64,000 bases of DNA, from positions 935 through 64,934 of the forward strand of contig JBAYHL010000003.1 in assembly GCA_041666185.1 (NCBI GenBank). The letters are read 5' to 3'. Origin of the DNA: Patescibacteria group bacterium. Lineage in GTDB: Bacteria > Patescibacteriota > UBA1384 > UBA12157 > JAENIV01. The notes under the pieces were generated by a model, which was not told where the DNA came from, made no database searches, and saw only the letters and a list, made by a program, of their open reading frames with translations. Positions 28,707 to 46,894 of this stretch are shown piece by piece; within the stretch, counting starts at the first letter, position 1; each line of letters starts with the position of its first letter. A program made the translations under genes and the position numbers.

Positions 28707-28774
28707 ATAGTAGGAATTTATTTTTCTAAAAAGAGTGGGAAACTCTTAGGTTTTGTGTAGCAGGAGGGGTTTTA

Positions 28775-31700
28775 ATGAACCAAGATGAGGTAAATGAAGC
28801 GAAGTCTTTAGATGCCGAAATTTCTAAAATTACAAAAAGCACTCGAGCGACCGTGCCGGCAATGACGCCGTTGCACGATATTTTGCGTCAAAAATATCCT
28901 TGGTATTACAGGTGGCACTTAAATCCTTTGAGTAAAGTTGTCCATACCTTAGTTTTGGGTTTGTGGATAGTTTTAGTTACGGGAACAGTTGTCTATAGTA
29001 ATGTTTATCAGGCGCCAACGGCTAAAGCCGCCGCTGATTTTACTTGTACTTGGGACGGAACAACTGGTAACTGGTCGGATACGGCTAAGTGGGGTGGTTG
29101 TAACAGTGAATATCCAGGGCAAACTGGGACTACTACTTACGATGTTTCGATCCCTTCAGGGTCAGTGACTTTGGATGTTGCTAGCGTCGATATCACCGCT
29201 GCCGGAACAACTGCAGGGGATATTTCTGTGGTTGGAACTTTAAATACAAATGGCAATGCTCTTACCTTACATTCAATGTTGGTTGATACTGGAGGAACTC
29301 TTGTAGCTGGGATTTCTACTTTTACTGTAAAAAGTAACTGGAATCATTCCGCGGGAACATTTATTCACAATACTTCTACCATTGCAATGACAGGAGCTAC
29401 AGGTTCGATCACCACAGGTACAGATTTAAAATATGTATATAACTTAACAACAACTACTGCTGGCCAAACCATTACTTTTGCCAATAGAACTGGCATCAAA
29501 GGAGTGCTAACAGTAGGTAATGCCTCTAGTGCGGTTACATTAAATGGTAATCAACTTATAGATTTGTACGACAATACTACACCGCTTTCTTTGACTGGAT
29601 TGTATAGCATAACATCAGTACAAATGACCTTCAGGGCAACATCTCCTTTGTCTATACCGGCTGCAACCTATGGAGTAGTTTATATATTTCTTAATGCCAC
29701 CAATACCATATCTTTAAGTGGAACAACTACTTTTAGTGCACTTGATATTTACTCTGCTGTGGACAGCGCTACGTCTACACTTGACACTGCCGGCTACACT
29801 GTAAATACTGTCAATCTTTCGATAGGATCAGCTAGTGGAACTAGTCATTGTGGCAAATTTATTGCCAATAACTCAACAGTAAATGTTAGTGGAAATGTTC
29901 TTATTCGCGCTTGTGGTGCAGGGACTGCTGAACTTGATGCTGGAAGTTCTACTATTAATGTTGGTGGAGATTACACTAATAATAGTACTTTCACTGCCAG
30001 TACCTCGACCATTAATTTTAATAAAACTTCCGGTACACAAACTCTTACTTCAGGTGGTACGGGAACAGGAAAATTATTTAATAATCTTACTCATTCTGGT
30101 GCGGGAATTTTGAGGTTAGCCACCAACGATATTGATGTGAATGGCACTTTCACTAATTCTGCCGGAACTTTTGATGCTGATACAAACGATAAAAGTATGA
30201 ATTTTGCTGGAGCTTGGAACAATACTGGGTCGGCGACATTTTCAAGAGGATCTGGGATGTTATATTTTGATGGAGCAACAACATTGACTGACTCTTCTTC
30301 CAACGCCGGCGATTTGGGGGTGGTATATATAACCCCTACATGTGTCTTAACTCTTGGGTCGAATGCCAAAATGACCTCTGTTACTAGTGTGGTTTTCTTA
30401 GGAAATCTCAACATGGGAAGTGGAAATACTTTGACGCTTACTGGCACTGGAACGCCCATGTCGTGGTTTGATACAACAACCTTTCAAAAAGGTACCAATT
30501 CGACTGTAACTTATACTGGCACAACCACGGCGACAAATGTTGCAACAGTTGCCTACAACAATCTAACCTTAACTCCAACAGCCGCTACTACTTACAGCTT
30601 AGCCGGTAATTTAACTGGTGCTAGTGCGATGAGTGGGAATTTGACTATTAATGCAAACGCTACTTTAAATACAACAACCTCAAATTACGGAATATCTACA
30701 ATAAATTTAACTATTAATGGAACTCTTTCCGCCAATGCTTCAGCAATTACTTTATCGGGTTCATGGAATAGCACTACTGGCCATTATAATAGGACAAGCG
30801 GCTCAAGCGGCTCTCATGTTACAATGACTGGCACAACAGGGACAGCCTCTATTAATTTTAATCCGGCTGATTTTTGGACCAGCACAACATCTTTTAACTA
30901 TCTAGAAATTAATGCGCCGGGTAACACAGTTACTTTGTCGAGTGACATTACTTTTTGGTATGATTGTCAATTAAATCTTCAAAGTGGCACAATAAATGGT
31001 AGCCGGTATATTACTTTTGCTTATCCTAATAACTCGTCTCCATATATTAATACTGCTGCCTCTTTTGGTGCTTCTTTGCCGACAGTCAGCTATATTATTG
31101 GCACTTCAAATCCTGCCTCTCCTACAATTGTATCGAGCGAAATTTATCCCAATTTAACTATCACTACTGGTAGCGCATGTCCAGCCGGCACCGAATGTTA
31201 TGCTAAATTATCCAGCGGTATTTCTGCTAACAACCTTATAGTCTCTGGTCAGACTGGTAAAAAAGCAACTTTAAATGCCGACATTCACGATATATCTGTA
31301 GGTAATGCTTTAATTATGGGAACAGCAGGTGGTTATTATGGCGAATTGGATATAAATAGCTCTTTAACTGTTAACAATTATGTCAGCATAGTTAATTCTG
31401 GTGTCGCCTTTTCAAACAAGCTCGTTGCTGGCACAGGCACATCTATCTCTGTCGCTAATGATTTCATGAACTATGACACCTTTGAGGCCGGCACTTCGAC
31501 AATCACCTTTAACGGATCAACAACAAATAGAGGCATTACGACTAATGGGGATGCTTTTTATAATTTAACCATTGACGGAGCTGGTGGTGGTTGGATAGCC
31601 CAAAGTGCAGTTAATGTAACCCATGACTTTAATATTACTAATGGTACATTTGATCTTAAGAGCGGCAGTAATTATGCCTTAAATGTTGGTAACGATTTTA

Positions 31701-34700
31701 TTGGTAACAATGGCACTTGGACATTTGAAATGAGGGCTTCAACCATTACAGTTTCCGGTAACTGGAATACTTCAGCTAAAGCATGGGATAGCACAAACAA
31801 CAATGCTCTTAAAACAGGGACTTCAACTGTTGTAATGAATGGAACAGGTACTAAAACAATTACAACTGGTGTCACAAATGCCTGGGAATCAAGATTTTAT
31901 AATTTAACTGTTGGCCAAAGTGGTAACACCACCAGCCTTGCACAAGCAGTTGGGACTGATGGGGTTCTGACAGTCGGGACAGGGACTTTTTCAATTGCGA
32001 CTGATAAAACCATTTATCTCAAAAAACCAACTGGCGATGTTTTATCACTTGATCCGGCTGCGGTTTTAGTAGGAGTAGGTACTGGCCATCTCAGTCTTCA
32101 CAGTAATGGTACGAGCGGTACTTTAAATCTGCCAGCACACACTTATGATATGTCAATATGGCTAAGTGGTGGTGGTTTTACTGTGGCTCAAACTGGTGAC
32201 GTAATTATAAATGGTAATTTAATGGTAAATGGAGATCAGCAAGCTAGCAGAGTTGCTAATTACAACACAGGCAATCATTCTTTAACCATTTCTGGCAATC
32301 TTCAAGTTGGTTACAATACTACTACTTACGATGCTAATAAGACTTTCACTGCTGGTAGTTCGACTGTTACGGTTGGTGGCAATATGACTCAATATGGTAT
32401 TCTAACCGCCGGTAGTTCTACCTTTGATTTTAATTCTGCAAGTAGCCGAACCTTAGACTCTGGTGGCACAGGTGCCAATCAAACATTTAATAATCTTACT
32501 CACTCAGGTAATAATACTTTGCAGCTTGTGACCAACTCTATTAATATTAATGGTAATCTTACTAATTCTGCCGGCGAATTTGATGCTAATGGGCTAAATG
32601 TTGATGTTGCTGGTAATTGGGATGTTGCCGGTGGAGGTTTTTATGCCGGGGCGACTCCTGGAACGCAAACAGTCACTTTGGATGGCGCAGGAGGATCCAC
32701 TCAAGCAATTTCTGGTTCAACAACTTTTAATAATTTAACGGCGACAACTGCAACTGCTAGAACTCTACAATTTGCTGCGGCATCGACTACGGTTGTAGAA
32801 GGTGTTTTGACAATGGACGGTGCGGCAGGACAACTGCTTTCCTTACGTTCGTCTTCTTCTGGTTCTTGGTGGTATTTTGGTACTCTTAATCCAGCCGAAA
32901 CCTCTTACCTAGATATTCAGGATTCAGACGCTTCTTTGGGTGCCACCAATACGGCTAACACTTCTAATGATTCTGGTAATAATCAAAATTGGGTTTTTGG
33001 TGGGGGAGTTACTTATATTTCCGGAACGGTCTATACTAATGAAAACAAATCCACCAACGTTGGTGCGGGAATAACGGTGGCTATTTCAGTTAATGGTGGA
33101 GCAAAGAATACAATAACAACGACTGCCGGCGGGGTATTTAGCTTTAATTCTGTGGGAGTAGCCGCTAACAACACTCTTACTATTTTTACTGATGATGTTA
33201 CCTATAAATCAAATCTTGTTACCCAAGTTTTAAATACGGTAGATGACATTACGGGCTTGGAAATGTACACCGGAGATATTTCGCTTCGTCATGAAACTGC
33301 GGGACCCTTAACTAACACATTACTTGCAACAGCTGATAATCTAGCTGACCCTAATATGTTTTTCTCGGTTGATGGTTCTAATAACGCAACTTTTTCCAAA
33401 AAACTCTGGGTAGAAAGTGGTTACAACTATACACCAGGAGGTAACGTTACGGTTAACGATAGTACGGAAATTAGAAGTCTTGCTACTTTAAACCTGGGTT
33501 CTTCTGGTTATATTTTAACCTTGGGTGGTACATCAGCTACACCATTAGTGGTTTCTGGGACGCTTTCAACTGGCAGTAGTTCAACTGTTAAATACACAGC
33601 TGTTAATGCTGGGAGCAATGTCAGTGTTGTCGCTACTCCTTACAACAATCTTCAATTTTCACCTGCCTCGGCTGAAAGCTATGATTTAGCTGGTAACCTT
33701 ACTGTTGCTAATGCCATGACGGGCAGTTTAACAGTTGATGCTAATGCAACGCTTAATACCTACGTTGGAACTACAAGTTACAACATTTCTTGTGTAAATG
33801 GAACTGTTAATGCTAGTGGAACTCTTTATGCTGGCGCAAATGGCAGCACTGGCACGTCAACTTTTACGGCTTCTGGTAACTGGGACACCTCCAATGGTAC
33901 ATTTACTTACGGGACTTCAACAGTTGTTCTTACGGGTACAGCAAATTTAGGTGCTGGATCGTCTGCTTCTCATTCACTGTACAATTTGACAATGACTACT
34001 CCCGGTCAAATTGTAACTTTGTCTAGCATTGCTACAAAAGTTTACGGTACTTTTACAGTTGGTAGTACCTCGGGTGCTAAAGTTACTCTACAGAGAGGTG
34101 GTGGGAATGCATGGTTTTATTTGTACAACAATACTACCCCGTTAGTTTTCAACGGAACTTACAATGGGAGCCCTGGGTATAATATTGATGATTTAAATAC
34201 AGTATATAATCCTACATTAGACACATCTTTTGTTGGTGGTCATTTTGGGAATTTATATTTTACTTGTAACAACAAGACTATCACACTTGCTAATGCTGTT
34301 ACCGCAACTGGTAATCTTTTTATTTATAGCTCCAATAGCACTTATCGCTCAACCGTTGATACGGCAAGTAATGCAGTTACTGCTGGGACTTTAAATCTTG
34401 GCCAGGCTAGCTATACGTCAAATTACGCTACTTTATTAGCCAATGCTTCAACTATTACGGCGGCGAATGTTGTTATAAGAACCGGAGCTTTGGCAAACAA
34501 TATTTTAAACGCTGGTTCGGCAACTATTAATGTTTCTACCAACTGGACAAATGCTGACACATTTACAGCCGGAACTTCAACAGTTAATTTCAATGGTACG
34601 ACAACCCAAACTATTACCGGTGCTAATACTTGGTATAATTTGACGATCGCCAATACCGCTGGTACACCAAGTGATACTTACGATGTTGACCCAACTGCTG

Positions 34701-37700
34701 CTCAAACTGTGACTAATACTTTTAATATTAACGATGGCCAATGGAGCGGTTTTAATGGCGACACCTATAACAATATTAATATTAATTATACTAACGGCAC
34801 TGTTAATGGCATTTTTAAACCAGACGCAGGTGCTAATATTAATATTTCTAGCAACTGGACACAAGCGCTTAATTCCGTTTTTACTTATGGTACGAGTACA
34901 ATTACTTTTACTGGTAGCGGCAAAACTATTGGTGGAACAGCAAGCTACAGTATTTTTTATAATATAACAATAAATCCAGGTGCGTCAGTTACCAATAATC
35001 TTCCTTATGTGTATAACTTTGGTCCTAATTTTACGGCTAATGGTACCTTTACAGTTGGGGATGGTAAATATGTAGGTCTTTATTATGTTGGTGGGTCAAC
35101 GGTTTCTATCGGTGATGGTGGTTTAATTCAAGGAATTGATGTTGCCGATTCCATTTTTAACGTAGAAGATCTTGCGCCAACGGTTAATTTAACTGGTACA
35201 GGAAATTTTGGTTCTAATCTTTATTTAAGGTTTATGTTTGTCGATAGTAATGGCACACTGCCTTCTCTCAATTATAAAGCAGGAAAAGTAGAAGCTTATG
35301 GTTTATATTTTACAAGTGGTACTTATACTATCACACCAACAGCCGGGACATTAGATATTGATGGTGATTTTTCTATCATGGGCGAAGAGTACGATCAAAT
35401 GACTTCTACTATCGACTTTAATAATTCCAACAATACGACGATTAATATTGGTGGAAGTTTTTCTAGGACAGATGCCTTTGGCGTTCCTGAAATTAAATAT
35501 ACCAAGGGTACGACTGATACAGTCACTTTTGATGCCGCTGCAGGTACAAAAACTTTTGATCCAGGCACAACATCCGTTTTCAATAATCTTACTCACTCTG
35601 GTGCGGGAACTTTACAACTTGCTAATACTGCCTTAAATATTGATGGCAACTTTTCTAACTCAGAATCTGCGGGAGAATTTGATGCCAATGGTTTAAATAT
35701 TAATGCCGCTGGCAATTGGGACGTTGCCGGTGGAGGTTTTTATGCCGGGGCGACTCCTGGAACGCAAACAGTCACTTTAGATGGTGCAGGAGGATCCACT
35801 CAAGCAATTTCTGGTTCAACAACTTTTAATAATTTAACAGCAACAGCTGCTACTGCCCGGACTTTACAGTTTGAAGGTGGTCAATTAAATATGGTTTCTG
35901 GTACTTTAACCATGAATGGCGCGGCAGGACAACTGCTTTCTTTGCGCTCATCTTCTCCTGGTACTACTTGGTATTTTGCCACTTCCGGCACGCCAACAAC
36001 TTCTTATCTAGATGTTAAGGACTCCGATGCTACTTTGGGAGCAACAATTAGCGCTAGCAATTCATTAAATTCTGGTAATAATTACAACTGGAGTTTTGGT
36101 GGCGGTGTAAATTATATGTCTGGTACGGTCTATACCAATGAAAACAAATCCACCAACGTTGGTGTTGGTGTTACGGTGGCAGTTTCAGTTAACGGTACGG
36201 CTAAACAGACAACGACAACCACGGCTGGCGGAGTATTTAGTTTTAACTCTGTTGGGGTTGCCGCTAACGAAACTTTAACCTTTTTCACTGACGATGTAAC
36301 TTACAAATCAAACCTTGTTACACAAGTTTTAAATACGGTAGATGACATCACGGGATTGGAAATGTACACCGGAGATATTTCACTTCGTCACGAAACCGCC
36401 GGGCCAATAACCAACACCTTGCTTGCAACAGCTGATAATCTGGCTGACCCTAATATGTTTTTCTCGGTTGATGGTTCTAATAACGCAACTTTCTCAAAGA
36501 AACTTTGGCTAGAATCAGGTTACACTTACACGCCAGGAGGAAATGCTACGGTTAATGACAATACTGAAGTTAGATCAACTGCTACCTTAAATCTAGGTTC
36601 GTCTGGTTACATCTTAACTTTAGGTGGTACATCAGCCACACCATTAGTGGTTTCTGGGACGCTTTCAACTGGCAGTAGTTCAACTGTTAAATACACAGCT
36701 GTCAATGCCGGCGGCAATGTTAATGTGACAACTGTACCTTACAACAACCTCCAATTCACACCGGCGTCAGCTGAAAGCTACGATTTAACCGGTAATCTTA
36801 CTGTTGCTAATGCTATGACAGGGAGTCTTACAATTGATACTAACGCAACCTTTAGCACAACAGCTTCTAACTACAATGTCGCTGGGATTAATGCGACGAT
36901 CGTGGGTACTTTAACGCCAAATGCTTCAACTATTACTCTTTCCGGTAACTGGGATTCGTCGACAGGGACTGTTAATATGACTGGGAATACTTCGACCGTT
37001 GAAATTACCGGTAATAGCTCAATTAATGGTAAAAGCTGGGTTAATACTTTTTATAATCTAAAAACAGCTTATACCGACAAAAATGTTAGCTGGACAAATA
37101 ATAGTGCCATAATTAATCAGCTTACGTTGATGGGGACCAATCCAAGTACCTCTCATATTACTGGAGTTGCTAGTCAATATGGTCCTAATTTGAATGTTAG
37201 CGGGTCTAATTTAGTTGTTTCTAACGGTGCCAATATGGTGAACTTGACAATTCTTTATACTGGTTCGGGAGCAACGACTATTACTCCCGGTACTTTTTAC
37301 TCTATTTTGGCGGTTGCTCCATCTTCATCAACTCAGACTTTAGGTGGCGATGTTACCTGTGATTATGTTAGAGTTTTTGGTTCTTCTGGGCAAACAGCCA
37401 CATTGGATTTGAATGGTTACACCTTAAATTCTGTTTCAAGCACTGGTTTTAACCAAATTGGTTGGGATGGTGACAACACGCGTTATGGCAAAATTATCAA
37501 TAGCTCTCAGACAACTGACGCGACAATTAATGCTAATGGCGGTGGTAGTGGTGGTATAAAAATTAGTACCTCCAATACAGGTGGTAAAAATATTCTTGAT
37601 GCCAGCGGCGTTGGTCCTGCTAATCATACGATTAATGTTAATATGGCTGGTAACTGGACGAATAACGATCAATTTATATACAGTAATTCAACAGTTAAAT

Positions 37701-40700: not shown

Positions 40701-43700
40701 TTGATACTAATAACTTAAATACATTTTTCCTTGGTGATTGGAATAATACTGGTGATGCGATTTATTCTAGAGGTAGTGGTATTTTAGATTTTGTTGGTAC
40801 TTCGATTATTACTAATACTTCAACTAATGCAGAAAGTTTGGCAGGTGTTATTATTATTGGGACTGCTACTCTTAACTCTAATCTGACAATTCAGTCAGTT
40901 ACTGGTTCAGGTACTTTAAATCTTGGTAGTGGTTCGTACACCCTTACGGTAACAAGCACTGGATCAGGTTTAGGCGTGACCAATTTCAACAAAGGTACTG
41001 GTTCAACAGTTGTTTTTACTGGTACTGGTGCCAGTGTTAACATTGCTACTTTTGCTTATAATAATTTAACTTTGTCACCGGCAACATCGGCAACTTACAG
41101 TTTAACTGGTAATCTTACGGGTGCCAATGCTATGAGCGGCAATCTTACTATTAATACTAACGCGACTTTAGACCTGCGGCCTTCAACAACCGATTATAGT
41201 CTGACGGCAGTTAATGTGACTGTTGGCGGAGTTTTGGATGCTGGCAGTTCGTCGTCTACTGTTACGGTTGGTGGTAACTGGGATGTTTCTACTGGTACTT
41301 TCACAAGGGGAACCAGCATAGTTGCTTTCACTGGGAGTTCGGCTTCTATAAATTGTGGTGCTGCTTATTGGAACAATCAGTTTTGGACAATCAACTTTCC
41401 TTCAGCCGGAACAACAACTACTACTTTAACGAATTCTATTTCGGTCAGAAATACTTCTTTAGGAAGTTCTACAAATACAATTACTAGTGCAACCAATTTA
41501 TCTATTGAGGTTTGGAACAGTGGTACACCGGTAACTAATAATAACGCTGTTTTAAGTAATGTTCAGCTAACATATAACGCAAGTGGGGCTACTAATGTGG
41601 CCGCCGGAAATTCTTTTGGTAATGTTAAGTTTTTTTCAGATACCAATAGTGTTACTTACACTTTGCAAGGTGACATTAACGCCGCTGTGGTTACTGTTTA
41701 TTCCAGTAACGACAACAGAACTGCGACACTTGATTTAGATGGCCACAACTTAACTCTTTCTAGTAGTCTTTCCGTTGGTTTAACTGGGAACACTATTAGA
41801 AATGGTGTTATCCAAAATACTAATGTAACAACTAAATCGACAATCACGTCAACCGACCTAACAATCTATAACGGTGCCGGTAATAACAAGATTTTAGCTA
41901 ATGGCACTCAAACTATTGACTTCAATGTTGCTGGCAACTGGACCAATTCTGACACATTTACTGCTGGTGCTTCGACAGTGACTTTCAATGGCACGACAAC
42001 CCAAACTATCACTGGCGCTAATACTTGGTACAACTTAACCATTGCTAACACCTACGTGACCCCAAGTGACACTTATGACGTTGACCCAACGGCGGCTCAA
42101 ACTGTTACTAACACTTTCAATGTTAACGACGGGCAATACAGCGCTTTCAATGGTGACAGCTACAATGATATTAATATTAATTATACCAGCAGCTCCGCTA
42201 AGGGTATTTTAAAACCAGACGCGGCGGCGAGCATCACTGTTTCTGGTAACTGGACATATATGTCTGGTGCTACTATTACTACTGGCACAAGTACATTCAC
42301 CTTTACTGGTAGTGGTAAGACTATTGGAGGAACTGGATCTTCATCTTTCTACAATTTTGTAATTAATCCAGGGGCATCTATTACAGGTAATGCAACCTCT
42401 TTATATGTGTACGGTCCAACATTTACAGTTAATGGCACATTTAACATTAATTCTGTATATTTTTATGGTGCTACCCTCACAGTTAATAGCACATTAACTG
42501 TTGGAGATGGAAAGATTTTTTATTGGTCATATCCAGACCTAACACTTTCTATTGGTGATGGTGGATTAATTCAAGGAGTAGATGTTAATGATTCTATATT
42601 TGAAATAAGCAATGATTCAACGCCTACTATTAATTTGGCTGGAACAGGAAATTTTGGTTCTAATCTTTATTTGCAGTTTTATCTTTATTCTGGCAGTCTT
42701 TCTATTCCTTCCTTGCATTACCAAGCCGGTAAGGTTGAGGTATATGGTTCTTTCGCGTTCGAAAGTTCTACTCACACTGTTGTACCGACAGCTGGGACAT
42801 TAGACATTGACGGAAATTTCAGTCTTAAAAGTGAGGTTTTCATTTCAGGTACTCCTGTTATTGACTTCAATAACTCCAATAATACGACTATTAATATTGG
42901 TGGAAATTTTTCCAGAACAGAGATAGGGGGTGCTGTTGCTAAATACACTAAAGGTACAACCGATACAGTTACTTTTGACGCTGCTTCTGACACAAAAACT
43001 TTTGATCCTGGTTCTACCTCAGTTTTCAACAATGTTACTCACTCTGGTGAAAGTACTTTGCAGCTTGTTAATACTAATCTAAACGTCGATGGCAACTTCA
43101 CTAATTCGGCTGGTACTTTTGATGCTAATGGTCGTGATATAACTGTTGCGGGATCGTGGAGCAACACGGCTACTTTTGACAAAGAAACGAGGACAGTCAC
43201 TTTCGATGGTGGTGCAACCGGAAAAACAATTAATGGTGGTGCCTCCGGATTTTATAATTTAACAATCAATGGAGCCGGTGGAGGATGGACTTTAGATACT
43301 AGTAACTTAACCACTGTTACAAACATTAGCATTAATTCCGGAACATTAAACACTGGCACTCTTTCTCTGGGAACAGCTTCCAGCACGGTTTTGAATGTTG
43401 ATGGAGGAAACTTAAATGGTGGAAGTAACACAATTAATGCTAAAACTTTTAATGTGTTAAGTGGTGCTTTTGTGTCTGGTAGCGGGCAAGTTAATTTAGG
43501 GACAAACTCGTCTTGGGGTTATTATGGACACACTAGCGGAACCGCTGATTGGACTACTAACAACACAACACTTTATATCTATTCAAATAGTGAGAGGACT
43601 TTACCTCCAGATACGTATCATCATCTTACCTTAGCAGCTGTTATAATTCCTTTTTCTGGTGATCCAATCTATAGTTTAACCGGGGCAACTGTGTTGGAAG

Positions 43701-46700
43701 GGAATCTAGAGATTTTAGGAGTTACTGGTCTTTCTTCGGCGCAACTTTCTGTTACCAGTAATGATTTAACTGTTTACGGTAATTTAACTATCGGTGATGT
43801 GGCCACTCTTTCGGCGACGACAGCTAATATTTTAGTTGGTGGTGACTGGACTAACTCCAATACGTTTACTCCTGGTACTTCGATAGTTGATTTTACTAAA
43901 TCGGTTGGTGCTCAGACATTGAACTCGGGTGGTACTGGGACAGGCAAAGCCTTTAACAACCTTACTCACTCAGGGGCTGGAACTCTTCAACTTTCAACTA
44001 ATGCAATTAATATTGATGGTAATTTTACAAACTCTAATGGGGTTTTCAATGCCAATGGTTTAAACGTTAATGTTGCTAAAGATTGGAATATTTCTGTCGG
44101 TTCTTTTTCTGCAGGAGCAACCCCAGGTGATCAAACAGTTACTTTTGATTCAACTAGCCCAACAGTAATTTCTGGTTCGACAGATTTCAATAACTTAACC
44201 ATGGATGCTTCGGTTGATGGAGCTAAAACTATTACCTTTGAAGCTGGTTTTGTCCAGACAATCGCTGATGGAAAGACTTGGGATCTAAATGGTGGCAGCG
44301 GTAAGGTTTTAACTCTTCGTAGTTCAATACCTGATACTGCTTGGGAATTTGTAATTCCAGCTGATATGACTTCAGGGGAGTATATTGATGTTAAAGACAG
44401 CCAAAATAATACCAATGAGTTTAGAATTACACCTGGAGCAAATTGTATTGACTCTGGTAATAACGTTCCTGGTTGGTTGTTGTTCCCAGATGCGCCGACA
44501 ATTGGCACTCCACAAGCAATTTCGACAACGGCTGTTCGTTGGACATTTACAGACACTTCTTACAACGAAATTGGTTTTAAAGTTTACGATGCAGGCGATA
44601 ATTTGAAGGCAACTTGCCCAGGCGTGGATTTGACTTATTGCGATGAGGTTGGACTTTCAACAAACACTCAGTACTCTGGTCGCTACGTTGTTTCTTACAA
44701 CATGGCTGGTCAATCATCGCATTCAGGTACAGCGGCTTCAACTTACACTTTAGCCGACACGCCTTTAGCGCCAACCCTTCAGCAGTCATCTAGTACCTCT
44801 CTTAAGGTGATCGTCAATGTTAATGGTAACCCTTCTCCAACTCAATTTGCTATTTCCAACGAAAGTTTGGGTAAATATGTCCAGGCCGATGGCAGTAATG
44901 GCGATACCGCCGTTTGGCAAGATTATGCTACTTGGGGTGGAGAAAATGGTATTACCAACACTGGTTTAGTTCATTCAACAAATTATACTTATAGAGTTAA
45001 AGCTAGAAATGGCGATAATATTGAAACGGCAGTTTCTCCGTCGAACTCAGAGACGACACTGTCCCAAGGTCATGGTGACAAGCCTCCTTCACCGACACTA
45101 TCATCAACAGAGTCGCCAACAACATCTCCGGGCGCAACTCCTTCAGGTGGGGTAACAACGTCTCCAGGCGCAAGCCCTGTGCCAACTTCTTCGTCGGCCG
45201 ATGTTCAAGCGCCAACCGTGCCATCGAATTTACGAGCAACTAAGCTAGGAGCGATTACCTTAACTTTAGCTTGGGATAGTTCTTCAGATGACATTAGTGT
45301 TCAAGGGTACGAAATTTATAATCCTACTACCAATATTTTAGTTGGCACAACAGCAAATAACTTCTTTGATTTTTCAGGGCTTTTACCTAACACAACTTAC
45401 AAGTTTTACGTTCGGGCTTTTGATGGCGCTAACCATTACAGTCCAAACTCGGAAGTTTTAACGATTACTACCTTGGAAAGTCGTACAGAAGAGGAAAAGG
45501 CGATTGAAAAGCAGGGTGGGGTAGTTGCCTTCTTGATTATGGGTAATATGCCGCAATCAAGAAATGCCGGACAAAGTTTCCCAGCAGTTAAACTAACAGC
45601 CGCTGATGTTGGTGGTAATGTAGTTAAAGGCTACGATAAATCAGTTTATTTTACCTCTAGCGATACTCAAGCCAAGCTAACTTATGATGAATCTCATCCT
45701 TATACATTCCAAAGCTCCGATAATGGTGTTCATACATTTGCCCCTCGTGATTTTATTCTCAACACTCCTGGTCGTCAGCAAATTGCCGTAAGTGATAATT
45801 CAACAAAATCAACGGCTGAAATTCAAGTGAATTCGACAACTTCGGCGGTTTTACAGCGATCAGCTATTTATGTTGCAGGATTCTTAAATAGTCCTGAACA
45901 GGTTTCTAAGGCAAATCTAGTAGTGGCAGTTTTGATTGCCGGCGCTTTGCTTATGCCAACACTGGTTAATGCTTTTTCTAACGTAAATAATTTATGGCCA
46001 CAGCTTATTTATGGGTTTACTTATCTTTCGCAAATGCTTGGCCTTTCTAAGAGGCGACGTAAAACTTGGGGAGTGATTTTTAACTCTCAAACTGGTCAAC
46101 CAATACCATTTTCAATAGTAAAACTTCTTGATAAGAATAATCATTTAGTAGAGCTTGCTATTTCTGACAAGCAAGGAAGATACACTTTTGCTATGAAAGA
46201 GGGTACTTTTACCTTGAAAGTAAGTCGGGCTGATTTTGTTTTTCCTTCAAGTGAAAAGGCATCTAGTTTTTACGAGAAAGTTTACACTGGTTCAGAAATT
46301 AAAATTGCCGATGTAAATCAAAGCATTTTCTTTAACATACCTCTTGATCCACACGCCAAATCAACGTTTGGCTTAGGTTTGTGGATCTTTGTCATCAGAT
46401 TAAATCATTTTACTCAACAGATTCGTTTACCGCTTTTTGCTTTAGGAATGATTTTTGCGATTATGATGTTGGTGATTAATTTTAATCCGGTTTATATTAT
46501 CTTCTTAGCATTTTGTGCCCTGATGATTGTTCTTGATGTTACGCGCTTTGGGAGGGTTGTCGCCGCAGGTATGGTCTCTGACACCTACTCACGTCCTTTA
46601 CCTAAAGCGATTGTTCGTATTTACCATAAAGAAGATAACCGATTGATTAGCACGGATATTTCTAATAAATCTGGTCGGTTTAAGTTTAAAGTAAATCCTG

Positions 46701-46831
46701 GAGTTTACTATCTTGTGGCGACAAGACCACAATATGTTGATTTTAAAACTCACCTTATGTATCTTGAAAAAGATCAGAAGAAGGGGATTGCCACATCGAT
46801 TAATATTGAGCTTAGAAAAGAAACAAAGTAG
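28775..46831 (+). CDS. Giant cell-surface protein (6018 aa). N-terminal signal anchor, very long T/G/N/S-rich beta-helix-like repetitive region built from about 3.5-kb super-repeats, two FN3 domains, an Ig-like region, and a C-terminal cassette of CarboxypepD_reg-like domain, TM helices and a second such domain.
   Basis: Uninterrupted 18-kb ORF with RBS aggagggg. Motif N-L-T-H-S-G recurs. FN3 at PSNLRATKLGAITLTLAWD...YKFYVRAFD. C-terminus KRRRKTWGVIFNSQTGQPIPFSIVKLLD..., hydrophobic helices, then a second similar domain. Confidence 0.8.
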   Translation: MNQDEVNEAKSLDAEISKITKSTRATVPAMTPLHDILRQKYPWYYRWHLNPLSKVVHTLVLGLWIVLVTGTVVYSNVYQAPTAKAAADFTCTWDGTTGNWSDTAKWGGCNSEYPGQTGTTTYDVSIPSGSVTLDVASVDITAAGTTAGDISVVGTLNTNGNALTLHSMLVDTGGTLVAGISTFTVKSNWNHSAGTFIHNTSTIAMTGATGSITTGTDLKYVYNLTTTTAGQTITFANRTGIKGVLTVGNASSAVTLNGNQLIDLYDNTTPLSLTGLYSITSVQMTFRATSPLSIPAATYGVVYIFLNATNTISLSGTTTFSALDIYSAVDSATSTLDTAGYTVNTVNLSIGSASGTSHCGKFIANNSTVNVSGNVLIRACGAGTAELDAGSSTINVGGDYTNNSTFTASTSTINFNKTSGTQTLTSGGTGTGKLFNNLTHSGAGILRLATNDIDVNGTFTNSAGTFDADTNDKSMNFAGAWNNTGSATFSRGSGMLYFDGATTLTDSSSNAGDLGVVYITPTCVLTLGSNAKMTSVTSVVFLGNLNMGSGNTLTLTGTGTPMSWFDTTTFQKGTNSTVTYTGTTTATNVATVAYNNLTLTPTAATTYSLAGNLTGASAMSGNLTINANATLNTTTSNYGISTINLTINGTLSANASAITLSGSWNSTTGHYNRTSGSSGSHVTMTGTTGTASINFNPADFWTSTTSFNYLEINAPGNTVTLSSDITFWYDCQLNLQSGTINGSRYITFAYPNNSSPYINTAASFGASLPTVSYIIGTSNPASPTIVSSEIYPNLTITTGSACPAGTECYAKLSSGISANNLIVSGQTGKKATLNADIHDISVGNALIMGTAGGYYGELDINSSLTVNNYVSIVNSGVAFSNKLVAGTGTSISVANDFMNYDTFEAGTSTITFNGSTTNRGITTNGDAFYNLTIDGAGGGWIAQSAVNVTHDFNITNGTFDLKSGSNYALNVGNDFIGNNGTWTFEMRASTITVSGNWNTSAKAWDSTNNNALKTGTSTVVMNGTGTKTITTGVTNAWESRFYNLTVGQSGNTTSLAQAVGTDGVLTVGTGTFSIATDKTIYLKKPTGDVLSLDPAAVLVGVGTGHLSLHSNGTSGTLNLPAHTYDMSIWLSGGGFTVAQTGDVIINGNLMVNGDQQASRVANYNTGNHSLTISGNLQVGYNTTTYDANKTFTAGSSTVTVGGNMTQYGILTAGSSTFDFNSASSRTLDSGGTGANQTFNNLTHSGNNTLQLVTNSININGNLTNSAGEFDANGLNVDVAGNWDVAGGGFYAGATPGTQTVTLDGAGGSTQAISGSTTFNNLTATTATARTLQFAAASTTVVEGVLTMDGAAGQLLSLRSSSSGSWWYFGTLNPAETSYLDIQDSDASLGATNTANTSNDSGNNQNWVFGGGVTYISGTVYTNENKSTNVGAGITVAISVNGGAKNTITTTAGGVFSFNSVGVAANNTLTIFTDDVTYKSNLVTQVLNTVDDITGLEMYTGDISLRHETAGPLTNTLLATADNLADPNMFFSVDGSNNATFSKKLWVESGYNYTPGGNVTVNDSTEIRSLATLNLGSSGYILTLGGTSATPLVVSGTLSTGSSSTVKYTAVNAGSNVSVVATPYNNLQFSPASAESYDLAGNLTVANAMTGSLTVDANATLNTYVGTTSYNISCVNGTVNASGTLYAGANGSTGTSTFTASGNWDTSNGTFTYGTSTVVLTGTANLGAGSSASHSLYNLTMTTPGQIVTLSSIATKVYGTFTVGSTSGAKVTLQRGGGNAWFYLYNNTTPLVFNGTYNGSPGYNIDDLNTVYNPTLDTSFVGGHFGNLYFTCNNKTITLANAVTATGNLFIYSSNSTYRSTVDTASNAVTAGTLNLGQASYTSNYATLLANASTITAANVVIRTGALANNILNAGSATINVSTNWTNADTFTAGTSTVNFNGTTTQTITGANTWYNLTIANTAGTPSDTYDVDPTAAQTVTNTFNINDGQWSGFNGDTYNNININYTNGTVNGIFKPDAGANINISSNWTQALNSVFTYGTSTITFTGSGKTIGGTASYSIFYNITINPGASVTNNLPYVYNFGPNFTANGTFTVGDGKYVGLYYVGGSTVSIGDGGLIQGIDVADSIFNVEDLAPTVNLTGTGNFGSNLYLRFMFVDSNGTLPSLNYKAGKVEAYGLYFTSGTYTITPTAGTLDIDGDFSIMGEEYDQMTSTIDFNNSNNTTINIGGSFSRTDAFGVPEIKYTKGTTDTVTFDAAAGTKTFDPGTTSVFNNLTHSGAGTLQLANTALNIDGNFSNSESAGEFDANGLNINAAGNWDVAGGGFYAGATPGTQTVTLDGAGGSTQAISGSTTFNNLTATAATARTLQFEGGQLNMVSGTLTMNGAAGQLLSLRSSSPGTTWYFATSGTPTTSYLDVKDSDATLGATISASNSLNSGNNYNWSFGGGVNYMSGTVYTNENKSTNVGVGVTVAVSVNGTAKQTTTTTAGGVFSFNSVGVAANETLTFFTDDVTYKSNLVTQVLNTVDDITGLEMYTGDISLRHETAGPITNTLLATADNLADPNMFFSVDGSNNATFSKKLWLESGYTYTPGGNATVNDNTEVRSTATLNLGSSGYILTLGGTSATPLVVSGTLSTGSSSTVKYTAVNAGGNVNVTTVPYNNLQFTPASAESYDLTGNLTVANAMTGSLTIDTNATFSTTASNYNVAGINATIVGTLTPNASTITLSGNWDSSTGTVNMTGNTSTVEITGNSSINGKSWVNTFYNLKTAYTDKNVSWTNNSAIINQLTLMGTNPSTSHITGVASQYGPNLNVSGSNLVVSNGANMVNLTILYTGSGATTITPGTFYSILAVAPSSSTQTLGGDVTCDYVRVFGSSGQTATLDLNGYTLNSVSSTGFNQIGWDGDNTRYGKIINSSQTTDATINANGGGSGGIKISTSNTGGKNILDASGVGPANHTINVNMAGNWTNNDQFIYSNSTVKFTGTGAIDNTASWGDNNKRMHSLIIEAGAGTVTLTNGAYLMGTGTLTLNSGILTGNKNIYVNAFNGSYVNNGISNFGASKPVITMMVSSTNPASPDIISGASATYPYPYLETRGGISSATVYGKMGGNITSSSFTIAPWQTNDTLEVDTDNYSITVNGWMFVGANWATSHASILNARHSTITVTGEVGIYSHDTNPTPSELRFDDTGGSLSVMGNFNFDTAGGSVRGIFTPGHSTVTFNGANTQAIIGANTWYNLTIANTAGSPSDTYDVDPTAAQTVTNTFNINDGQYSAFNGDSYNDININYTSSTVKGIFKPDAAASVTVSGNWSLATSATFTYGTSTIIFTGSGKTIGGTSLSWSLYSLVINPGASITSNTAYIYVYGTTFTVNGTFSVNNISVYAPTVTVNSTLTVGDAKMLYWSNSNQTLNIGDGGLIQGVDVADSVFRIIGDATPTINLTGTGNFGSSLYLQFMIYYGDLALPSLNYQAGKVEVFGSFAFESIVHNIVPTAGNLDIDWDLSIKCELIFGTGTPTMNLYNSNNTPINIGGSFTRAEIGAVGAIAKYTKGTTDTVTFDAASGTKTFDPGSLSTFNNVTHSGAGTLQLANTALNADGNLTNSAGTFDANGLNINVAGNFDISGGSFSAGTVPGTQTVTLDGAGGSTQAISGSTTFNNLTASATAARTLQFAASSTTAVSGTLTMNGATSQLISLRSSSSGTAWNLNATNAPTLTYVDAQDSNASGGALITANNSNDSGNNTNWTFGGGVTYISGTVYTNENKSTNVGAGITVAISVDGEAKQTTTTTTGGVFAFNSVGVAANNTLTLFTDDVTYKGNLITQVLNTTNDITGLEMYTEDIVIRHETVGPMTNTLLATAATLADPNMFFSVSGGNATFTKKLWLESGFNYTSGGQASVTDLETRGTSTFAPQANSVFASGNWTISATGILTTSGTIDFTKLSGTQTLNSGGTDSNHQLYGLTHSGAGTLQLTSNAIVENNTFTNSDGTFDTNNLNTFFLGDWNNTGDAIYSRGSGILDFVGTSIITNTSTNAESLAGVIIIGTATLNSNLTIQSVTGSGTLNLGSGSYTLTVTSTGSGLGVTNFNKGTGSTVVFTGTGASVNIATFAYNNLTLSPATSATYSLTGNLTGANAMSGNLTINTNATLDLRPSTTDYSLTAVNVTVGGVLDAGSSSSTVTVGGNWDVSTGTFTRGTSIVAFTGSSASINCGAAYWNNQFWTINFPSAGTTTTTLTNSISVRNTSLGSSTNTITSATNLSIEVWNSGTPVTNNNAVLSNVQLTYNASGATNVAAGNSFGNVKFFSDTNSVTYTLQGDINAAVVTVYSSNDNRTATLDLDGHNLTLSSSLSVGLTGNTIRNGVIQNTNVTTKSTITSTDLTIYNGAGNNKILANGTQTIDFNVAGNWTNSDTFTAGASTVTFNGTTTQTITGANTWYNLTIANTYVTPSDTYDVDPTAAQTVTNTFNVNDGQYSAFNGDSYNDININYTSSSAKGILKPDAAASITVSGNWTYMSGATITTGTSTFTFTGSGKTIGGTGSSSFYNFVINPGASITGNATSLYVYGPTFTVNGTFNINSVYFYGATLTVNSTLTVGDGKIFYWSYPDLTLSIGDGGLIQGVDVNDSIFEISNDSTPTINLAGTGNFGSNLYLQFYLYSGSLSIPSLHYQAGKVEVYGSFAFESSTHTVVPTAGTLDIDGNFSLKSEVFISGTPVIDFNNSNNTTINIGGNFSRTEIGGAVAKYTKGTTDTVTFDAASDTKTFDPGSTSVFNNVTHSGESTLQLVNTNLNVDGNFTNSAGTFDANGRDITVAGSWSNTATFDKETRTVTFDGGATGKTINGGASGFYNLTINGAGGGWTLDTSNLTTVTNISINSGTLNTGTLSLGTASSTVLNVDGGNLNGGSNTINAKTFNVLSGAFVSGSGQVNLGTNSSWGYYGHTSGTADWTTNNTTLYIYSNSERTLPPDTYHHLTLAAVIIPFSGDPIYSLTGATVLEGNLEILGVTGLSSAQLSVTSNDLTVYGNLTIGDVATLSATTANILVGGDWTNSNTFTPGTSIVDFTKSVGAQTLNSGGTGTGKAFNNLTHSGAGTLQLSTNAINIDGNFTNSNGVFNANGLNVNVAKDWNISVGSFSAGATPGDQTVTFDSTSPTVISGSTDFNNLTMDASVDGAKTITFEAGFVQTIADGKTWDLNGGSGKVLTLRSSIPDTAWEFVIPADMTSGEYIDVKDSQNNTNEFRITPGANCIDSGNNVPGWLLFPDAPTIGTPQAISTTAVRWTFTDTSYNEIGFKVYDAGDNLKATCPGVDLTYCDEVGLSTNTQYSGRYVVSYNMAGQSSHSGTAASTYTLADTPLAPTLQQSSSTSLKVIVNVNGNPSPTQFAISNESLGKYVQADGSNGDTAVWQDYATWGGENGITNTGLVHSTNYTYRVKARNGDNIETAVSPSNSETTLSQGHGDKPPSPTLSSTESPTTSPGATPSGGVTTSPGASPVPTSSSADVQAPTVPSNLRATKLGAITLTLAWDSSSDDISVQGYEIYNPTTNILVGTTANNFFDFSGLLPNTTYKFYVRAFDGANHYSPNSEVLTITTLESRTEEEKAIEKQGGVVAFLIMGNMPQSRNAGQSFPAVKLTAADVGGNVVKGYDKSVYFTSSDTQAKLTYDESHPYTFQSSDNGVHTFAPRDFILNTPGRQQIAVSDNSTKSTAEIQVNSTTSAVLQRSAIYVAGFLNSPEQVSKANLVVAVLIAGALLMPTLVNAFSNVNNLWPQLIYGFTYLSQMLGLSKRRRKTWGVIFNSQTGQPIPFSIVKLLDKNNHLVELAISDKQGRYTFAMKEGTFTLKVSRADFVFPSSEKASSFYEKVYTGSEIKIADVNQSIFFNIPLDPHAKSTFGLGLWIFVIRLNHFTQQIRLPLFALGMIFAIMMLVINFNPVYIIFLAFCALMIVLDVTRFGRVVAAGMVSDTYSRPLPKAIVRIYHKEDNRLISTDISNKSGRFKFKVNPGVYYLVATRPQYVDFKTHLMYLEKDQKKGIATSINIELRKETK
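32340..43200 (+). repeat. Intragenic super-repeats within the giant gene. Block A (about 1.4 kb) lies at about 32380, 35480, 39380, with partial copies at 42950 and 43880. Block B (about 1.05 kb) lies at about 34560, 38390, 41950. Block C at about 30000-30680 repeats at about 40560-41180.
   Basis: Example: 32622-32760 and 35722-35860 are near-identical DNA, with 2 mismatches in about 115 bp. Peptide ANTWYNLTIANTAGTPSDTYDVDPTAAQTVTNTFNINDGQ occurs three times. Peptide SGTVYTNENKSTNVG occurs three times. Confidence 0.85.
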
Positions 46832-46854
46832 GGGGTACAAACAATCGCGGGTAA

Positions 46855-46894
46855 CAAAAAAGACTCCTGGAGGGGCTCTAGGAGTCTTTTTTGA
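46855..46894. terminator. Bidirectional terminator (AGACTCCT...AGGAGTCT plus T-run), followed by a second perfect 11-bp stem GAACCTGTCTT/AAGACAGGTTC (46893-46932)
   Basis: Seen directly. It lies between the convergent giant gene and the ldt gene. Confidence 0.7.

What the first reader, a model, noticed from the sequence alone, without database searches (positions are those of the whole stretch)
28775..46831. 18-kb gene for a 6018-aa repetitive surface protein built from recently homogenised super-repeats
Giant genes are rare. This one has an N-terminal signal anchor, a T/G/N/S-rich beta-helix-like body, two FN3 domains and a membrane-anchoring C-terminus. It occupies more than a quarter of the window. 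Its body is made of blocks of about 1 to 1.4 kb repeated three or four times, period about 3.5 to 3.8 kb. Some segments are nearly identical at the nucleotide level (32622-32760 versus 35722-35860). That points to ongoing gene conversion or recombination, which could generate size or antigenic variation. In a reduced-genome, possibly episymbiotic lineage, such a protein is a prime candidate for host or cell attachment.
Basis: partly seen in the sequence, partly recalled or inferred. Interest (0 to 1): 0.85.

Follow-up and report, generated by a model that had tools for sequence, protein, structure and literature searches.

The report
Giant beta-helix surface protein, Patescibacteria
This is a real 18-kb gene of an ultrasmall (CPR/Patescibacteria) bacterium that encodes a membrane-anchored, probably ~100-nm surface fibre built from old, diverged repeats; it belongs to a so-far undescribed family of surface proteins that share an unusually conserved export leader and a distinctive membrane anchor.

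The parts
28762..28767 (+). Shine-Dalgarno AGGAGG, 7 nt before the ATG at 28775
   Evidence: Read directly from the sequence
28775..46831 (+). Giant gene, 6018 codons plus stop
   Evidence: The identical protein is on record as NCBI MFA6492866.1
28775..29029 (+). Conserved leader, aa 1-85. It has a ~51-aa basic cytoplasmic n-region (SLDAEI..KSTR..VPA..PLHDILRQKYPWYYRWH..SK.H), an h-region at aa ~55-75, and a predicted signal-peptidase site TAKA(85)|A(86)ADF
   Evidence: No Pfam or NCBIfam model matches it
29030..44401 (+). Ectodomain body, aa 86-5209. T/G/N/S-rich right-handed beta-helix modules (A, C, D, X types) with three inserted beta-sandwich modules (B)
29963..32389 (+). Degenerate proto-unit U0 (aa 397-1205): partial A, C and D-like segments
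32390..35494 (+). Super-repeat unit U1 (aa 1206-2240): modules A-B-C-D
35495..39367 (+). Super-repeat unit U2 (aa 2241-3531): A-B-C-X-D
39368..42925 (+). Super-repeat unit U3 (aa 3532-4717): A-B-A'-C-X'-D
42926..44401 (+). Partial unit U4 (aa 4718-5209): partial A, a less related stretch, then a full A module (aa 5022-5209)
33005..33574 (+). B module copy 1 (aa 1411-1600). A CnaB/transthyretin-like beta-sandwich at aa ~1410-1505 plus a linker. The other copies are at 36104-36673 and 39983-40462
32624..32737 (+). Conversion-like tract between U1 and U2 (partner 35723-35836): 35 of 38 codons identical, with exact runs of 56 and 53 nt
33344..33391 (+). Conversion-like tract between U1 and U2 (partner 36443-36490): 16 identical codons
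33539..33601 (+). Conversion-like tract between U1 and U2 (partner 36638-36700): 21 identical codons, and the longest exact repeat in the gene (65 nt)
   Evidence: permutation P=0.0034
44486..45061 (+). Two degenerate FN3-like sandwiches (aa ~5238-5429). Only the second has weak statistical support
   Evidence: Pfam fn3 second stretch. Titin FN3 hit at E 0.022. The rest is inferred from sequence pattern
45062..45214 (+). P/T/S-rich linker (aa 5430-5480)
   Evidence: Read directly from the sequence
45221..45457 (+). Canonical FN3 domain (aa 5483-5561)
   Evidence: Pfam E 1e-15. PDB chitinase A1 FN3 at E 4e-11
45530..45832 (+). Ig-like beta-sandwich (aa ~5586-5686), membrane-proximal
   Evidence: AF2 anchor model, strands 17-117, pLDDT 76-91. 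Conserved in homologues
45908..46057 (+). First anchor helix or helices (aa 5712-5754) followed by the polybasic KRRRK (aa 5759-5763)
   Evidence: pLDDT is only 52-69 here, so the number of membrane crossings is uncertain
46058..46351 (+). CarboxypepD_reg / transthyretin-like domain 1 (aa ~5762-5859)
46367..46552 (+). Transmembrane helical hairpin (aa 5865-5901 and 5905-5926), then a basic stretch (TRFGR; RKARP in the family consensus)
46556..46813 (+). CarboxypepD_reg domain 2 (aa ~5928-6013)
   Evidence: Pfam PF13620, E 2e-17, best stretch at aa 363-434 of the query. AF2
46953..48437 (-). Convergent L,D-transpeptidase (PG_binding_4 + YkuD). It is a conserved neighbour of the orthologues
49072..50187 (+). 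371-aa FN3 type-I membrane protein, a conserved third gene of the locus
   Evidence: 35-38% identity to the L006 and L009 partners
1205..6028 (+). Paralogous family member in the same window. 1607 aa, with the same leader (aa 46-125), the same anchor cassette (aa 1164-1580), and a BNR/Big_1 ectodomain

Best explanation
The gene encodes a Sec-exported, C-terminally membrane-anchored surface fibre of a Patescibacteria cell. It is an adhesin-like protein whose great length gives it reach.

Shown:
- The ORF is intact, lies in a housekeeping chromosomal context, and has a strong RBS.
- The body is a right-handed beta-helix with inserted CnaB/transthyretin-like sandwiches, followed by FN3/Ig domains next to the membrane.
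- The C-terminus is a conserved cassette: hydrophobic helix, KRRRK, CarboxypepD_reg, TM hairpin, basic stretch, CarboxypepD_reg.
- The N-terminus is an ~85-aa leader with near-invariant residues, shared by hundreds of mostly large proteins.
- Leader and anchor co-occur on proteins of 856-6018 aa with interchangeable ectodomains.
- The gene is the positional orthologue of 2.4 to more than 3.8 k-aa genes in Berkelbacteria and related genomes.
- The extra length comes from duplication of a 1035-1291-aa super-unit. The copies are old (dS about 1) and each is under purifying selection. There are a few short conversion tracts, only between units 1 and 2.

Inferred:
- The leader is cleaved at AKA|A, so the N-terminal beta-helix is the distal tip and the FN3/Ig stalk is proximal.
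- The positive-inside rule places both CarboxypepD_reg domains in the cytoplasm.
- At about 27 residues per 0.48-nm coil, the extended fibre would be roughly 85-110 nm.
- Its role is binding to a host cell, a particle or a polysaccharide.
For: Gene reality:
- ORF and composition. SD AGGAGG 7 nt upstream.
- Housekeeping neighbours: DnaG, RpoD, RecA, FtsH, MurJ.
- The identical protein is in NCBI.
- An independent Logan contig is 100% identical over 41955-48672.

Fold:
- AF2 of aa 1206-1610 gives pLDDT 86.3, all-beta.
- hhalign ties modules C/D/X to A, and N/M/X to C/D.

Anchor:
- Two PF13620 domains, E 2e-17.
- Conserved alignment. AF2 pLDDT 78.

Leader:
- 284 representatives at E<=1e-3, always N-terminal.
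- Invariant R39 and Y45 in 155/155 sequences; S21, T22, H35, W44, Y46, W48, H49 and H58 at 91-99%.
- AxA after the TM in 43% of sequences vs 16% in controls. A looser motif occurs in 72% vs 38%.
- 27 leader proteins carry the anchor at their extreme C-terminus.

Orthology and synteny:
-.

Repeat age:
- dS 0.91/1.35/1.20, dN 0.18-0.23. Run-length test. Segment-wise identities.
Against: - There is no expression, localisation or binding evidence.
- No recognisable ligand-binding or lectin domain was found in this protein.
- Only 405 aa of the body were modelled. Modules C, D and X are linked to the beta-helix only by profile similarity (probability 71-81% to A).
- Region aa 4830-5025 is unassigned.
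- Leader cleavage rests on motif enrichment only.
- The first anchor helix has low confidence (pLDDT 52-69). The number of membrane crossings, and therefore which side the CarboxypepD_reg domains lie on, is unresolved.
- Such domains are usually extracytoplasmic.
Confidence: 0.65

Rival explanations
1. One reading: the super-repeats are being actively homogenised by gene conversion or recombination, so the locus works as a generator of size or antigenic variation.
For: - Four tracts of 16-21 identical codons between units 1 and 2 lie in a background of pS about 0.5 (P=0.003).
- The closest pair changes from segment to segment: c2-c3 is closest in aa 1216-1300, c1-c2 in the B module. This indicates past exchange.
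- recA is present in the window.
- Orthologue lengths differ more than two-fold.
Against: - dS between copies is 0.9-1.35 and dN/dS about 0.15-0.2.
- Five of the six copy pairs tested show no runs beyond chance.
- The longest exact repeat is 65 nt, a poor substrate for frequent RecA recombination.
- B-module copies are as far from each other as from an Azambacteria homologue.
- No population variants could be retrieved.
Confidence: 0.12
2. Doubly anchored envelope protein: the leader is not cleaved, so both ends stay in the membrane and the 5600-aa ectodomain forms a loop or surface layer with a structural (S-layer-like) role rather than acting as an extended adhesin.
For: - The leader is far more conserved than ordinary signal peptides and co-occurs with the anchor. 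This would fit an interaction between the cytoplasmic leader and the putatively cytoplasmic CarboxypepD_reg domains.
- An L,D-transpeptidase is a conserved neighbour.
Against: - A signal-peptidase-like P-x-[small]-x-A|A motif is enriched 10-16 residues after the h-region.
- The anchor also occurs on proteins with ordinary cleavable signal peptides (P0041, P0051), so the anchor does not need the leader.
- The SlaB match is to a single generic sandwich domain.
Confidence: 0.15
3. Surface-displayed polysaccharide-degrading enzyme: the beta-helix modules are lyase, hydrolase or depolymerase domains that attack a host cell wall or capsule, as in phage tailspikes.
Against: - There is no match to any catalytic Pfam or NCBIfam family, even at E<=1.
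- There is no sequence relative among solved enzymes.
- The top structural hits are non-enzymatic adhesins.
- Active-site residues could not be examined.
Confidence: 0.08
4. Assembly artefact or pseudogene: the repeat structure was created or distorted by metagenome assembly.
For: The contig is a MAG contig. Related genes are very often broken at contig ends. The Logan contig ends at 41955, about 30 nt inside repeat copy 41924-42223.
Against: - An uninterrupted 6018-codon frame cannot arise by chance in ~40% GC DNA (inference).
- Repeats are only 67-83% identical with at most 65 nt exact, well below read length. Collapse or expansion is therefore unlikely.
- The 3' 4.9 kb of the gene is reproduced exactly by an independent assembler.
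- Purifying selection acts on every copy.
- Orthologues in complete genomes are also multi-kb.
Confidence: 0.03

Closest known systems
Giant membrane and surface proteins of CPR/Patescibacteria (Vampirococcus lugosii, 1392-4163 aa, PMC8080830; Absconditicoccaceae proteins >1500 aa, PMC13059738)
   Same: Ultrasmall reduced-genome host. Very large TM- or signal-peptide-bearing proteins with FN3 and other adhesion-type domains, proposed to form a fibrous surface and mediate host attachment.
   Different: This protein is larger (6018 aa) and its body is beta-helix with no Pfam match. Those papers do not describe the conserved leader or the TM/CarboxypepD_reg anchor cassette. No homology to those particular proteins was tested.
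Beta-helix adhesins: tapirins (6n2c), L. reuteri SRRP binding region (5nxk), Candida Awp A-domains (7o9p), autotransporter passengers (Pet, Hap, Hbp, pertactin), TpsA proteins (FHA, HxuA)
   Different: About 10% sequence identity. There is no beta-barrel translocator, TPS domain, LPXTG or aSec signal. Anchoring is by alpha-helical TM segments. The size is many-fold larger, with serial beta-helix modules.
Extended signal peptides of very large secreted proteins (ESPR of autotransporters/TpsA; YSIRK and KxYKxGKxW of Gram-positive surface proteins)
   Same: A conserved N-terminal extension before the hydrophobic core, associated with unusually large exported proteins. Probably cleaved by signal peptidase.
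   Different: The sequence motif is different (IQKSTR..P..PLH..LR.KY.WYY.WH..P..H). There is no match to ESPR, YSIRK or KxYKxGKxW models or motifs. It is much longer (~50-aa n-region), with several invariant aromatic and His residues.
Omnitrophota giant proteins (West-Roberts et al. 2023, bioRxiv 10.1101/2023.11.21.568195)
   Same: Giant genes in ultrasmall, host-dependent bacteria. Mostly extracellular. Beta-helix segments were found only by structure prediction. Attachment and cell-wall interaction were proposed.
   Different: Those are >30,000 aa, with many TM regions, SecA-DEAD domains and an antiparallel beta-helix. None of these features is present here.
CarboxypepD_reg (PF13620) / transthyretin-like and CnaB domains
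   Same: Two bona fide PF13620 domains in the anchor. CnaB-like sandwiches in the B modules.
   Different: Here the domains are interleaved with TM helices and each is preceded by a basic motif. No solved structure matched that arrangement. They may be cytoplasmic (inference).

Membership tests
Right-handed parallel beta-helix (pectate-lyase-like) fold class | Three-stranded right-handed beta-helix coils | tested here: met
Right-handed parallel beta-helix (pectate-lyase-like) fold class | Sequence match to Pfam Beta_helix/PbH1/pectate lyase families | tested here: not met
   No Pfam or NCBIfam hit in the body, even at E<=1
Autotransporter (type Va) adhesins | C-terminal beta-barrel translocator domain | tested here: not met
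   The C-terminus is alpha-helical TM plus CarboxypepD_reg. No Autotransporter Pfam hit
Autotransporter / TpsA | ESPR extended signal peptide or N-terminal TPS domain (PF05860) | tested here: not met
   The leader matches no Pfam or NCBIfam model at E<=1, apart from sub-threshold hits to unrelated families
Sortase-anchored Gram-positive surface proteins (incl. SRRPs) | C-terminal LPXTG + hydrophobic segment + basic tail; YSIRK or KxYKxGKxW signal | tested here: not met
   No LPXTG-like, YSIRK or KxYKxGKxW motif. About 260 aa follow the first hydrophobic/basic element
T1SS giant RTX/BAP adhesins (LapA, SiiE, MpIBP type) | RTX nonapeptide repeats and tandem Big/BIg repeats | tested here: not met
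   No GGxGxDxUx motif. No Big/RTX Pfam hits in the body
Exosortase/archaeosortase substrates (PEP-CTERM, PGF-CTERM) | PEP or PGF motif + TM + basic cluster at the extreme C-terminus | tested here: not met
   No PEP or PGF in the last 370 aa. The element is internal, although a conserved 'PE..SK.N' precedes the helix
Omnitrophota giant proteins | >30,000 aa, many TM regions, SecA-DEAD domain | tested here: not met
   6018 aa. TM segments only at the two ends. No SecA hit. Criteria taken from 10.1101/2023.11.21.568195
FN3 domain-containing proteins (the NCBI annotation) | PF00041 above the gathering score | tested here: met
   58 bits vs a cut-off of 25. This describes under 2% of the protein
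CarboxypepD_reg (PF13620) | PF13620 above the gathering score | tested here: met
   Only motif enrichment and the positive-inside rule (inference)

The most novel reading that the evidence does not exclude
The ~85-aa leader and the TM/CarboxypepD_reg cassette together mark a dedicated, previously undescribed export-and-anchoring system for large surface proteins across Patescibacteria. The leader, with its invariant S-T-R, His, Arg and WYY.WH residues, would be a recognition element for a specific targeting, insertion or processing step. The basic-motif-flanked transthyretin-like domains would sit in the cytoplasm and tether giant fibres to an intracellular partner. If so, the leader is a sequence tag that identifies much of the surface proteome of these uncultivated episymbionts.
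Probability: 0.3. Interest if true: 0.65.

Novelty: new variant of a known kind. Interest (0 to 1): 0.45.

Why it matters
Giant surface proteins are the leading candidates for how ultrasmall CPR bacteria find and hold their hosts. They are poorly annotated and usually fragmented in assemblies. This locus provides one complete 6018-aa example. It also shows that its ends define a recognisable family: a leader found in 284 representative proteins, and a conserved anchor. That offers a practical handle for cataloguing CPR surface proteomes and for recognising fragments of broken giant genes. It also yields specific testable hypotheses about export and anchoring in monoderm-like CPR envelopes. Finally, the analysis corrects the idea that the repeats are a fast-evolving variation device. 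They are old, selected duplications that doubled the fibre's length relative to its orthologues.

Tried and rejected
- The word-indexed search with the 130-aa leader found nothing, although the exhaustive phmmer search later found 284 hits. The first result was therefore a sensitivity artefact.
- The afdb50 fold library was unavailable.
- The metagenome scan for close relatives of module A-B returned one distant locus only, so copy-number polymorphism could not be assessed.
- Hydrophobicity autocorrelation gave only weak, irregular peaks (lags ~20-28 and 40-45). I do not use it as evidence.
- Promoter and terminator scans around the gene were at chance level.
- I tested the idea that the Azambacteria P0001 module is the specific orthologue of copy 3, which would prove pre-speciation duplication. 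Overall the three copies of the giant cluster together, and only some segments favour c3-P0001. The claim is therefore limited to 'copies are as diverged from each other as from that homologue in the B module'.
- Sorting motifs (LPXTG, PEP/PGF-CTERM, RTX, YSIRK, KxYKxGKxW, Tat, lipobox) are all absent.
- NxS/T sequon density (3.3 per 100 aa) is only modestly above the compositional expectation (2.55). I draw no glycosylation claim from it.
- PDB sequence searches gave no relative for the repeat unit.
Full report

The window holds one ATG-started ORF at 28775..46831 on the + strand, 6018 aa. No alternative ORF of 150 aa or more lies on either strand inside it. An AGGAGG box lies 7 nt before the ATG.

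The product is 47% T+G+S+N and 0.3% Cys. Hydrophobic segments occur only at aa ~52-75 and in the last 310 aa.

The neighbours are ordinary chromosomal genes: PNPase fragment, RNase J, FtsK, RecA, PPDK, DnaG, RpoD, FtsH, MurJ, CCA enzyme and LepA.

The identical 6018-aa protein is already on record as NCBI MFA6492866.1, 'MAG: fibronectin type III domain-containing protein [Patescibacteria group bacterium]'. It sits on a 65-kb contig and is a singleton at 90% identity.

Two independent assemblies reproduce parts of the window exactly. An ENA contig matches 22903-27099. A Logan contig of run SRR6484324 matches 41955-48672, which covers the last 4.9 kb of the gene.

**2. The repeats**

Direct repeats are real and large. 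The main pairs are:
- 32486-33750 vs 35579-36849: 80% over 1277 nt.
- 34577-36540 vs 38399-40416: 71% over 2037 nt.
- 38399-39571 vs 41972-43132: 75% over 1175 nt.

At protein level the body is a mosaic of four recurring module types (HMM map):
- A, ~205 aa.
- B, ~190 aa.
- C, ~190 aa.
- D, ~420 aa.
- plus an X segment.

These are arranged as three full super-units and two partial ones:
- U1, aa 1206-2240 (full).
- U2, aa 2241-3531 (full).
- U3, aa 3532-4717 (full).
- U0, aa 397-1205 (degenerate).
- U4, aa 4718-5209 (partial).

The periods are therefore 3099, 3822-3885 and 3561-3573 nt.

At offset 3099 it is 93.5% identical; at offset 3100 it is 32%. The longest exact repeat anywhere in the gene is 65 nt.

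**3. Are the repeats recently homogenised?**

No. Codon alignments of the A-B(-C) region give dS = 0.91 (U1-U2), 1.35 (U1-U3) and 1.20 (U2-U3). dN is 0.18-0.23, so dN/dS is about 0.15-0.2. These are old copies, each kept by purifying selection.

Low synonymous divergence is confined to short patches of U1 vs U2:
- aa 1284-1321 (two runs of 18 and 17 identical codons; 35 of 38 identical).
- aa 1524-1539.
- aa 1589-1609 (21 consecutive identical codons).

The longest run is significant against permutation (P=0.0034). The other two A-B pairs and all three D-module pairs show nothing beyond chance.

Which pair is closest changes from segment to segment. In the B module, U3, the U1/U2 pair and a Candidatus Azambacteria homologue are all 77-79% identical to one another.

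The history is therefore ancient duplication with occasional short conversion events. It is not ongoing homogenisation. With at most 65 nt of exact identity, the gene is also a poor substrate for frequent unequal recombination (inference).

**4. What the protein is made of**

The ~5100-aa body matches no Pfam or NCBIfam family, even at E<=1. It has no sequence relative among solved structures.

An AlphaFold2 model of aa 1206-1610 was built on 36 internal and external homologous fragments. It is confident (pLDDT 86.3) and all-beta.

Profile-profile comparison links modules C, D and X to A (probability 71-81%, E~1e-5). It links the N-terminal (aa 90-400) and middle (aa 800-1205) regions to C and D (88-99%). 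Region aa 4830-5025 and module B are not related to A.

Module A (aa ~1208-1408) is the piece most widely shared with large proteins from other phyla. These include Dehalococcoidales, Omnitrophica, Pyrinomonadaceae and gammaproteobacterial DUF11 proteins.

After the body come, in order:
- two degenerate FN3-like stretches, only one of which has weak statistical support;
- a P/T/S linker;
- one canonical FN3 (aa 5483-5561);
- an Ig-like sandwich.

**5. The two ends define a family**

*C-terminus.* The order is a long helix (aa 5712-5754), KRRRK, CarboxypepD_reg 1, a TM helical hairpin (aa 5865-5926), a basic stretch (RKARP in the family consensus), then CarboxypepD_reg 2. Evidence is Pfam PF13620 at E 2e-17 and an AF2 model with pLDDT 78.

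The cassette is conserved at 41-66% identity in Patescibacteria proteins. It also occurs on short proteins that have ordinary signal peptides.

*N-terminus.* Aa 1-85 align at 42-54% identity with the N-termini of the Berkelbacteria genes and of an Azambacteria fragment.

An exhaustive phmmer search of 1.84 billion representatives finds 284 proteins at E<=1e-3 and 39 at E<=1e-10. The match is at the extreme N-terminus in nearly all of them. Of the 147 newly returned proteins among the 150 listed, 66 are 1000 aa or longer and 12 are 3000 aa or longer.

Across 155 aligned leaders, R39 and Y45 are invariant. S21, T22, H35, W44, Y46, W48, H49 and H58 are 91-99% conserved. That is far more conservation than a normal signal-peptide n-region shows.

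Ten to sixteen residues after the hydrophobic core there is a recurrent P-x-[small]-x-A|A[S/T] motif. Strict AxA occurs in 43% of sequences vs 16% in control windows. A looser pattern occurs in 72% vs 38%. In the giant the site is TAKA85|A86. I therefore read the leader as a long, probably cleavable signal peptide rather than a permanent signal anchor. This is an inference.

Twenty-seven of the listed leader-bearing representatives also end with the complete anchor, at sizes of 856-6018 aa. Most of the remainder are obvious fragments.

Ectodomains differ between members: Laminin_G_3, Big_1, FN3 and BNR.

The window itself holds a second member at 1205-6028 (1607 aa). It has the same leader and anchor with a BNR/Big_1 ectodomain.

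Other leader-bearing giants exist, for example a 5188-aa Patescibacteria protein annotated as Calx-beta domain-containing. Several of them also contain internal repeats.

**6. Orthologues and context**

A scan of species-representative genomes with the anchor alignment recovered eight loci. The closest are:
- two Patescibacteria MAGs (66-67% identity), both truncated at contig ends;
- then Berkelbacteria, including two loci from single-sequence genomes of 915 and 929 kb (CP011213, labelled complete; OY969116, labelled chromosome 1).

In the five loci with enough flanking sequence the order is the same as in the window: large anchored gene, then a convergent L,D-transpeptidase (PG_binding_4 + YkuD). 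Where it was checked (L006, L009), a ~350-aa FN3 membrane protein follows, again as in the window. These are positional orthologues.

Their sizes are 2431, 3333, 3295 and more than 3771 aa. The gene in the window has thus roughly doubled.

The Berkelbacteria versions keep the leader, the FN3 region and the anchor but use other ectodomain modules. The Azambacteria fragment P0001 is collinear with the giant's first ~1400 aa.

**7. Most likely mechanism**

Shown: a beta-helix plus sandwich ectodomain lies between a conserved export leader and a conserved helical anchor, in a Patescibacteria chromosome.

Inferred:
- Export is by Sec, with the leader cleaved.
- The C-terminal anchor then holds the FN3/Ig stalk at the membrane, and the N-terminal beta-helix is distal.
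- The AF2 model has about 22 strands in 205 residues, or about 27 residues per 0.48-nm coil. About 4800 beta-helix residues plus about seven sandwich domains would then span roughly 85-110 nm. That is comparable to the size of the cell.
- Both CarboxypepD_reg domains follow basic motifs and are joined by a helical hairpin. They are therefore on the same side of the membrane and, by the positive-inside rule, probably cytoplasmic. The first helix is of low confidence (pLDDT 52-69), so this remains open.

Binding to a host cell or a polymer is the most plausible role. The fold's best matches are adhesins, and giant CPR surface proteins have been proposed to mediate host attachment (PMC8080830, PMC13059738). 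Nothing here tests binding.

**8. Comparison with known systems and novelty**

The protein works like a fibrillar beta-helix adhesin. It fails the defining features of every established class that I tested:
- autotransporters (no beta-barrel, no ESPR);
- TpsA proteins (no TPS domain);
- sortase substrates (no LPXTG, YSIRK or KxYKxGKxW);
- RTX/BAP adhesins (no RTX or Big repeats);
- exosortase substrates (no PEP or PGF);
- Omnitrophota giant proteins (wrong size, no SecA domain, few TM segments).

The general idea of giant adhesive surface proteins in CPR bacteria is published. I found no paper describing this leader or this anchor, though the searchable library is limited.

I therefore rate the locus a new variant of a known kind, of moderate interest.

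Noticed in passing
window 1205-6028 (+): A second large surface protein (1607 aa) with the same conserved leader (aa 46-125) and the same TM/CarboxypepD_reg anchor (27% identity to giant aa 5615-6003). Its ectodomain is a BNR/PSII_BNR propeller plus Big_1. The genome therefore uses the cassette more than once.
   Followed up: partly
window 27941-28306 and 28307-28666 (+): A stand-alone response-regulator receiver domain (121 aa, E 7e-23) and an Hpt phosphotransfer protein (119 aa, E 1e-9) abut each other and end 108 nt upstream of the giant gene on the same strand. A GAF-PAS histidine kinase lies at 11686-13767. This may be a regulatory link. The pair was not seen upstream of the Berkelbacteria orthologues.
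   Followed up: partly
window 48616-48690 (-): A tRNA-Ile with anticodon TAT (UAU). To my knowledge most bacteria read AUA with a lysidine-modified CAU tRNA, so this is an uncommon decoding solution.
   Followed up: no
window 52046-52120 and 52171-52245 (+): Two adjacent tRNA genes with anticodon CAT. They could be initiator and elongator Met, or one could be an Ile2-type tRNA. They were not distinguished.
   Followed up: no
window 46953-48437 (-) and 49072-50187 (+); L002, L006, L007, L009: An L,D-transpeptidase (PG_binding_4 + YkuD), convergent with the giant gene, is conserved in five genomes. A ~350-aa FN3 type-I membrane protein follows it where checked. This may be a functional link to the cell wall or merely inherited gene order.
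   Followed up: partly
L002/L004 7375-7640 (-): A bAvd gene (accessory protein of diversity-generating retroelements) lies about 6 kb downstream of the closest orthologue. No DGR component was seen in the window.
   Followed up: no
L007 284-1063 (+); L006 1998-3884 (-): In the Berkelbacteria loci a heliorhodopsin gene (E 2e-103) sits immediately upstream of one orthologue. A TMEM260-like/PMT_2 protein O-mannosyltransferase with TPR repeats sits upstream of another. The latter hints at O-glycosylation of these Thr/Ser-rich proteins.
   Followed up: no
giant aa ~5695-5712 (window ~45857-45910) and alignment A2: A conserved 'PE..SK.N' motif directly precedes the first anchor helix and is followed by a polybasic cluster. 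This superficially resembles a PEP-CTERM-type sorting signal, but it is internal, and PEP itself is absent.
   Followed up: partly
P0091 (4642 aa, leader search hit): This protein matched the leader query through seven internal stretches (e.g. aa 3520-3554) rather than at its N-terminus. It consists of ~100-aa tandem repeats 91-93% identical to each other. It is a different kind of protein, and the match may be spurious or repeat-derived.
   Followed up: no
L009 11343-13130 (+): In one orthologous locus an extra 595-aa Beta_helix + DUF11 protein is inserted between the large gene and the L,D-transpeptidase.
   Followed up: no
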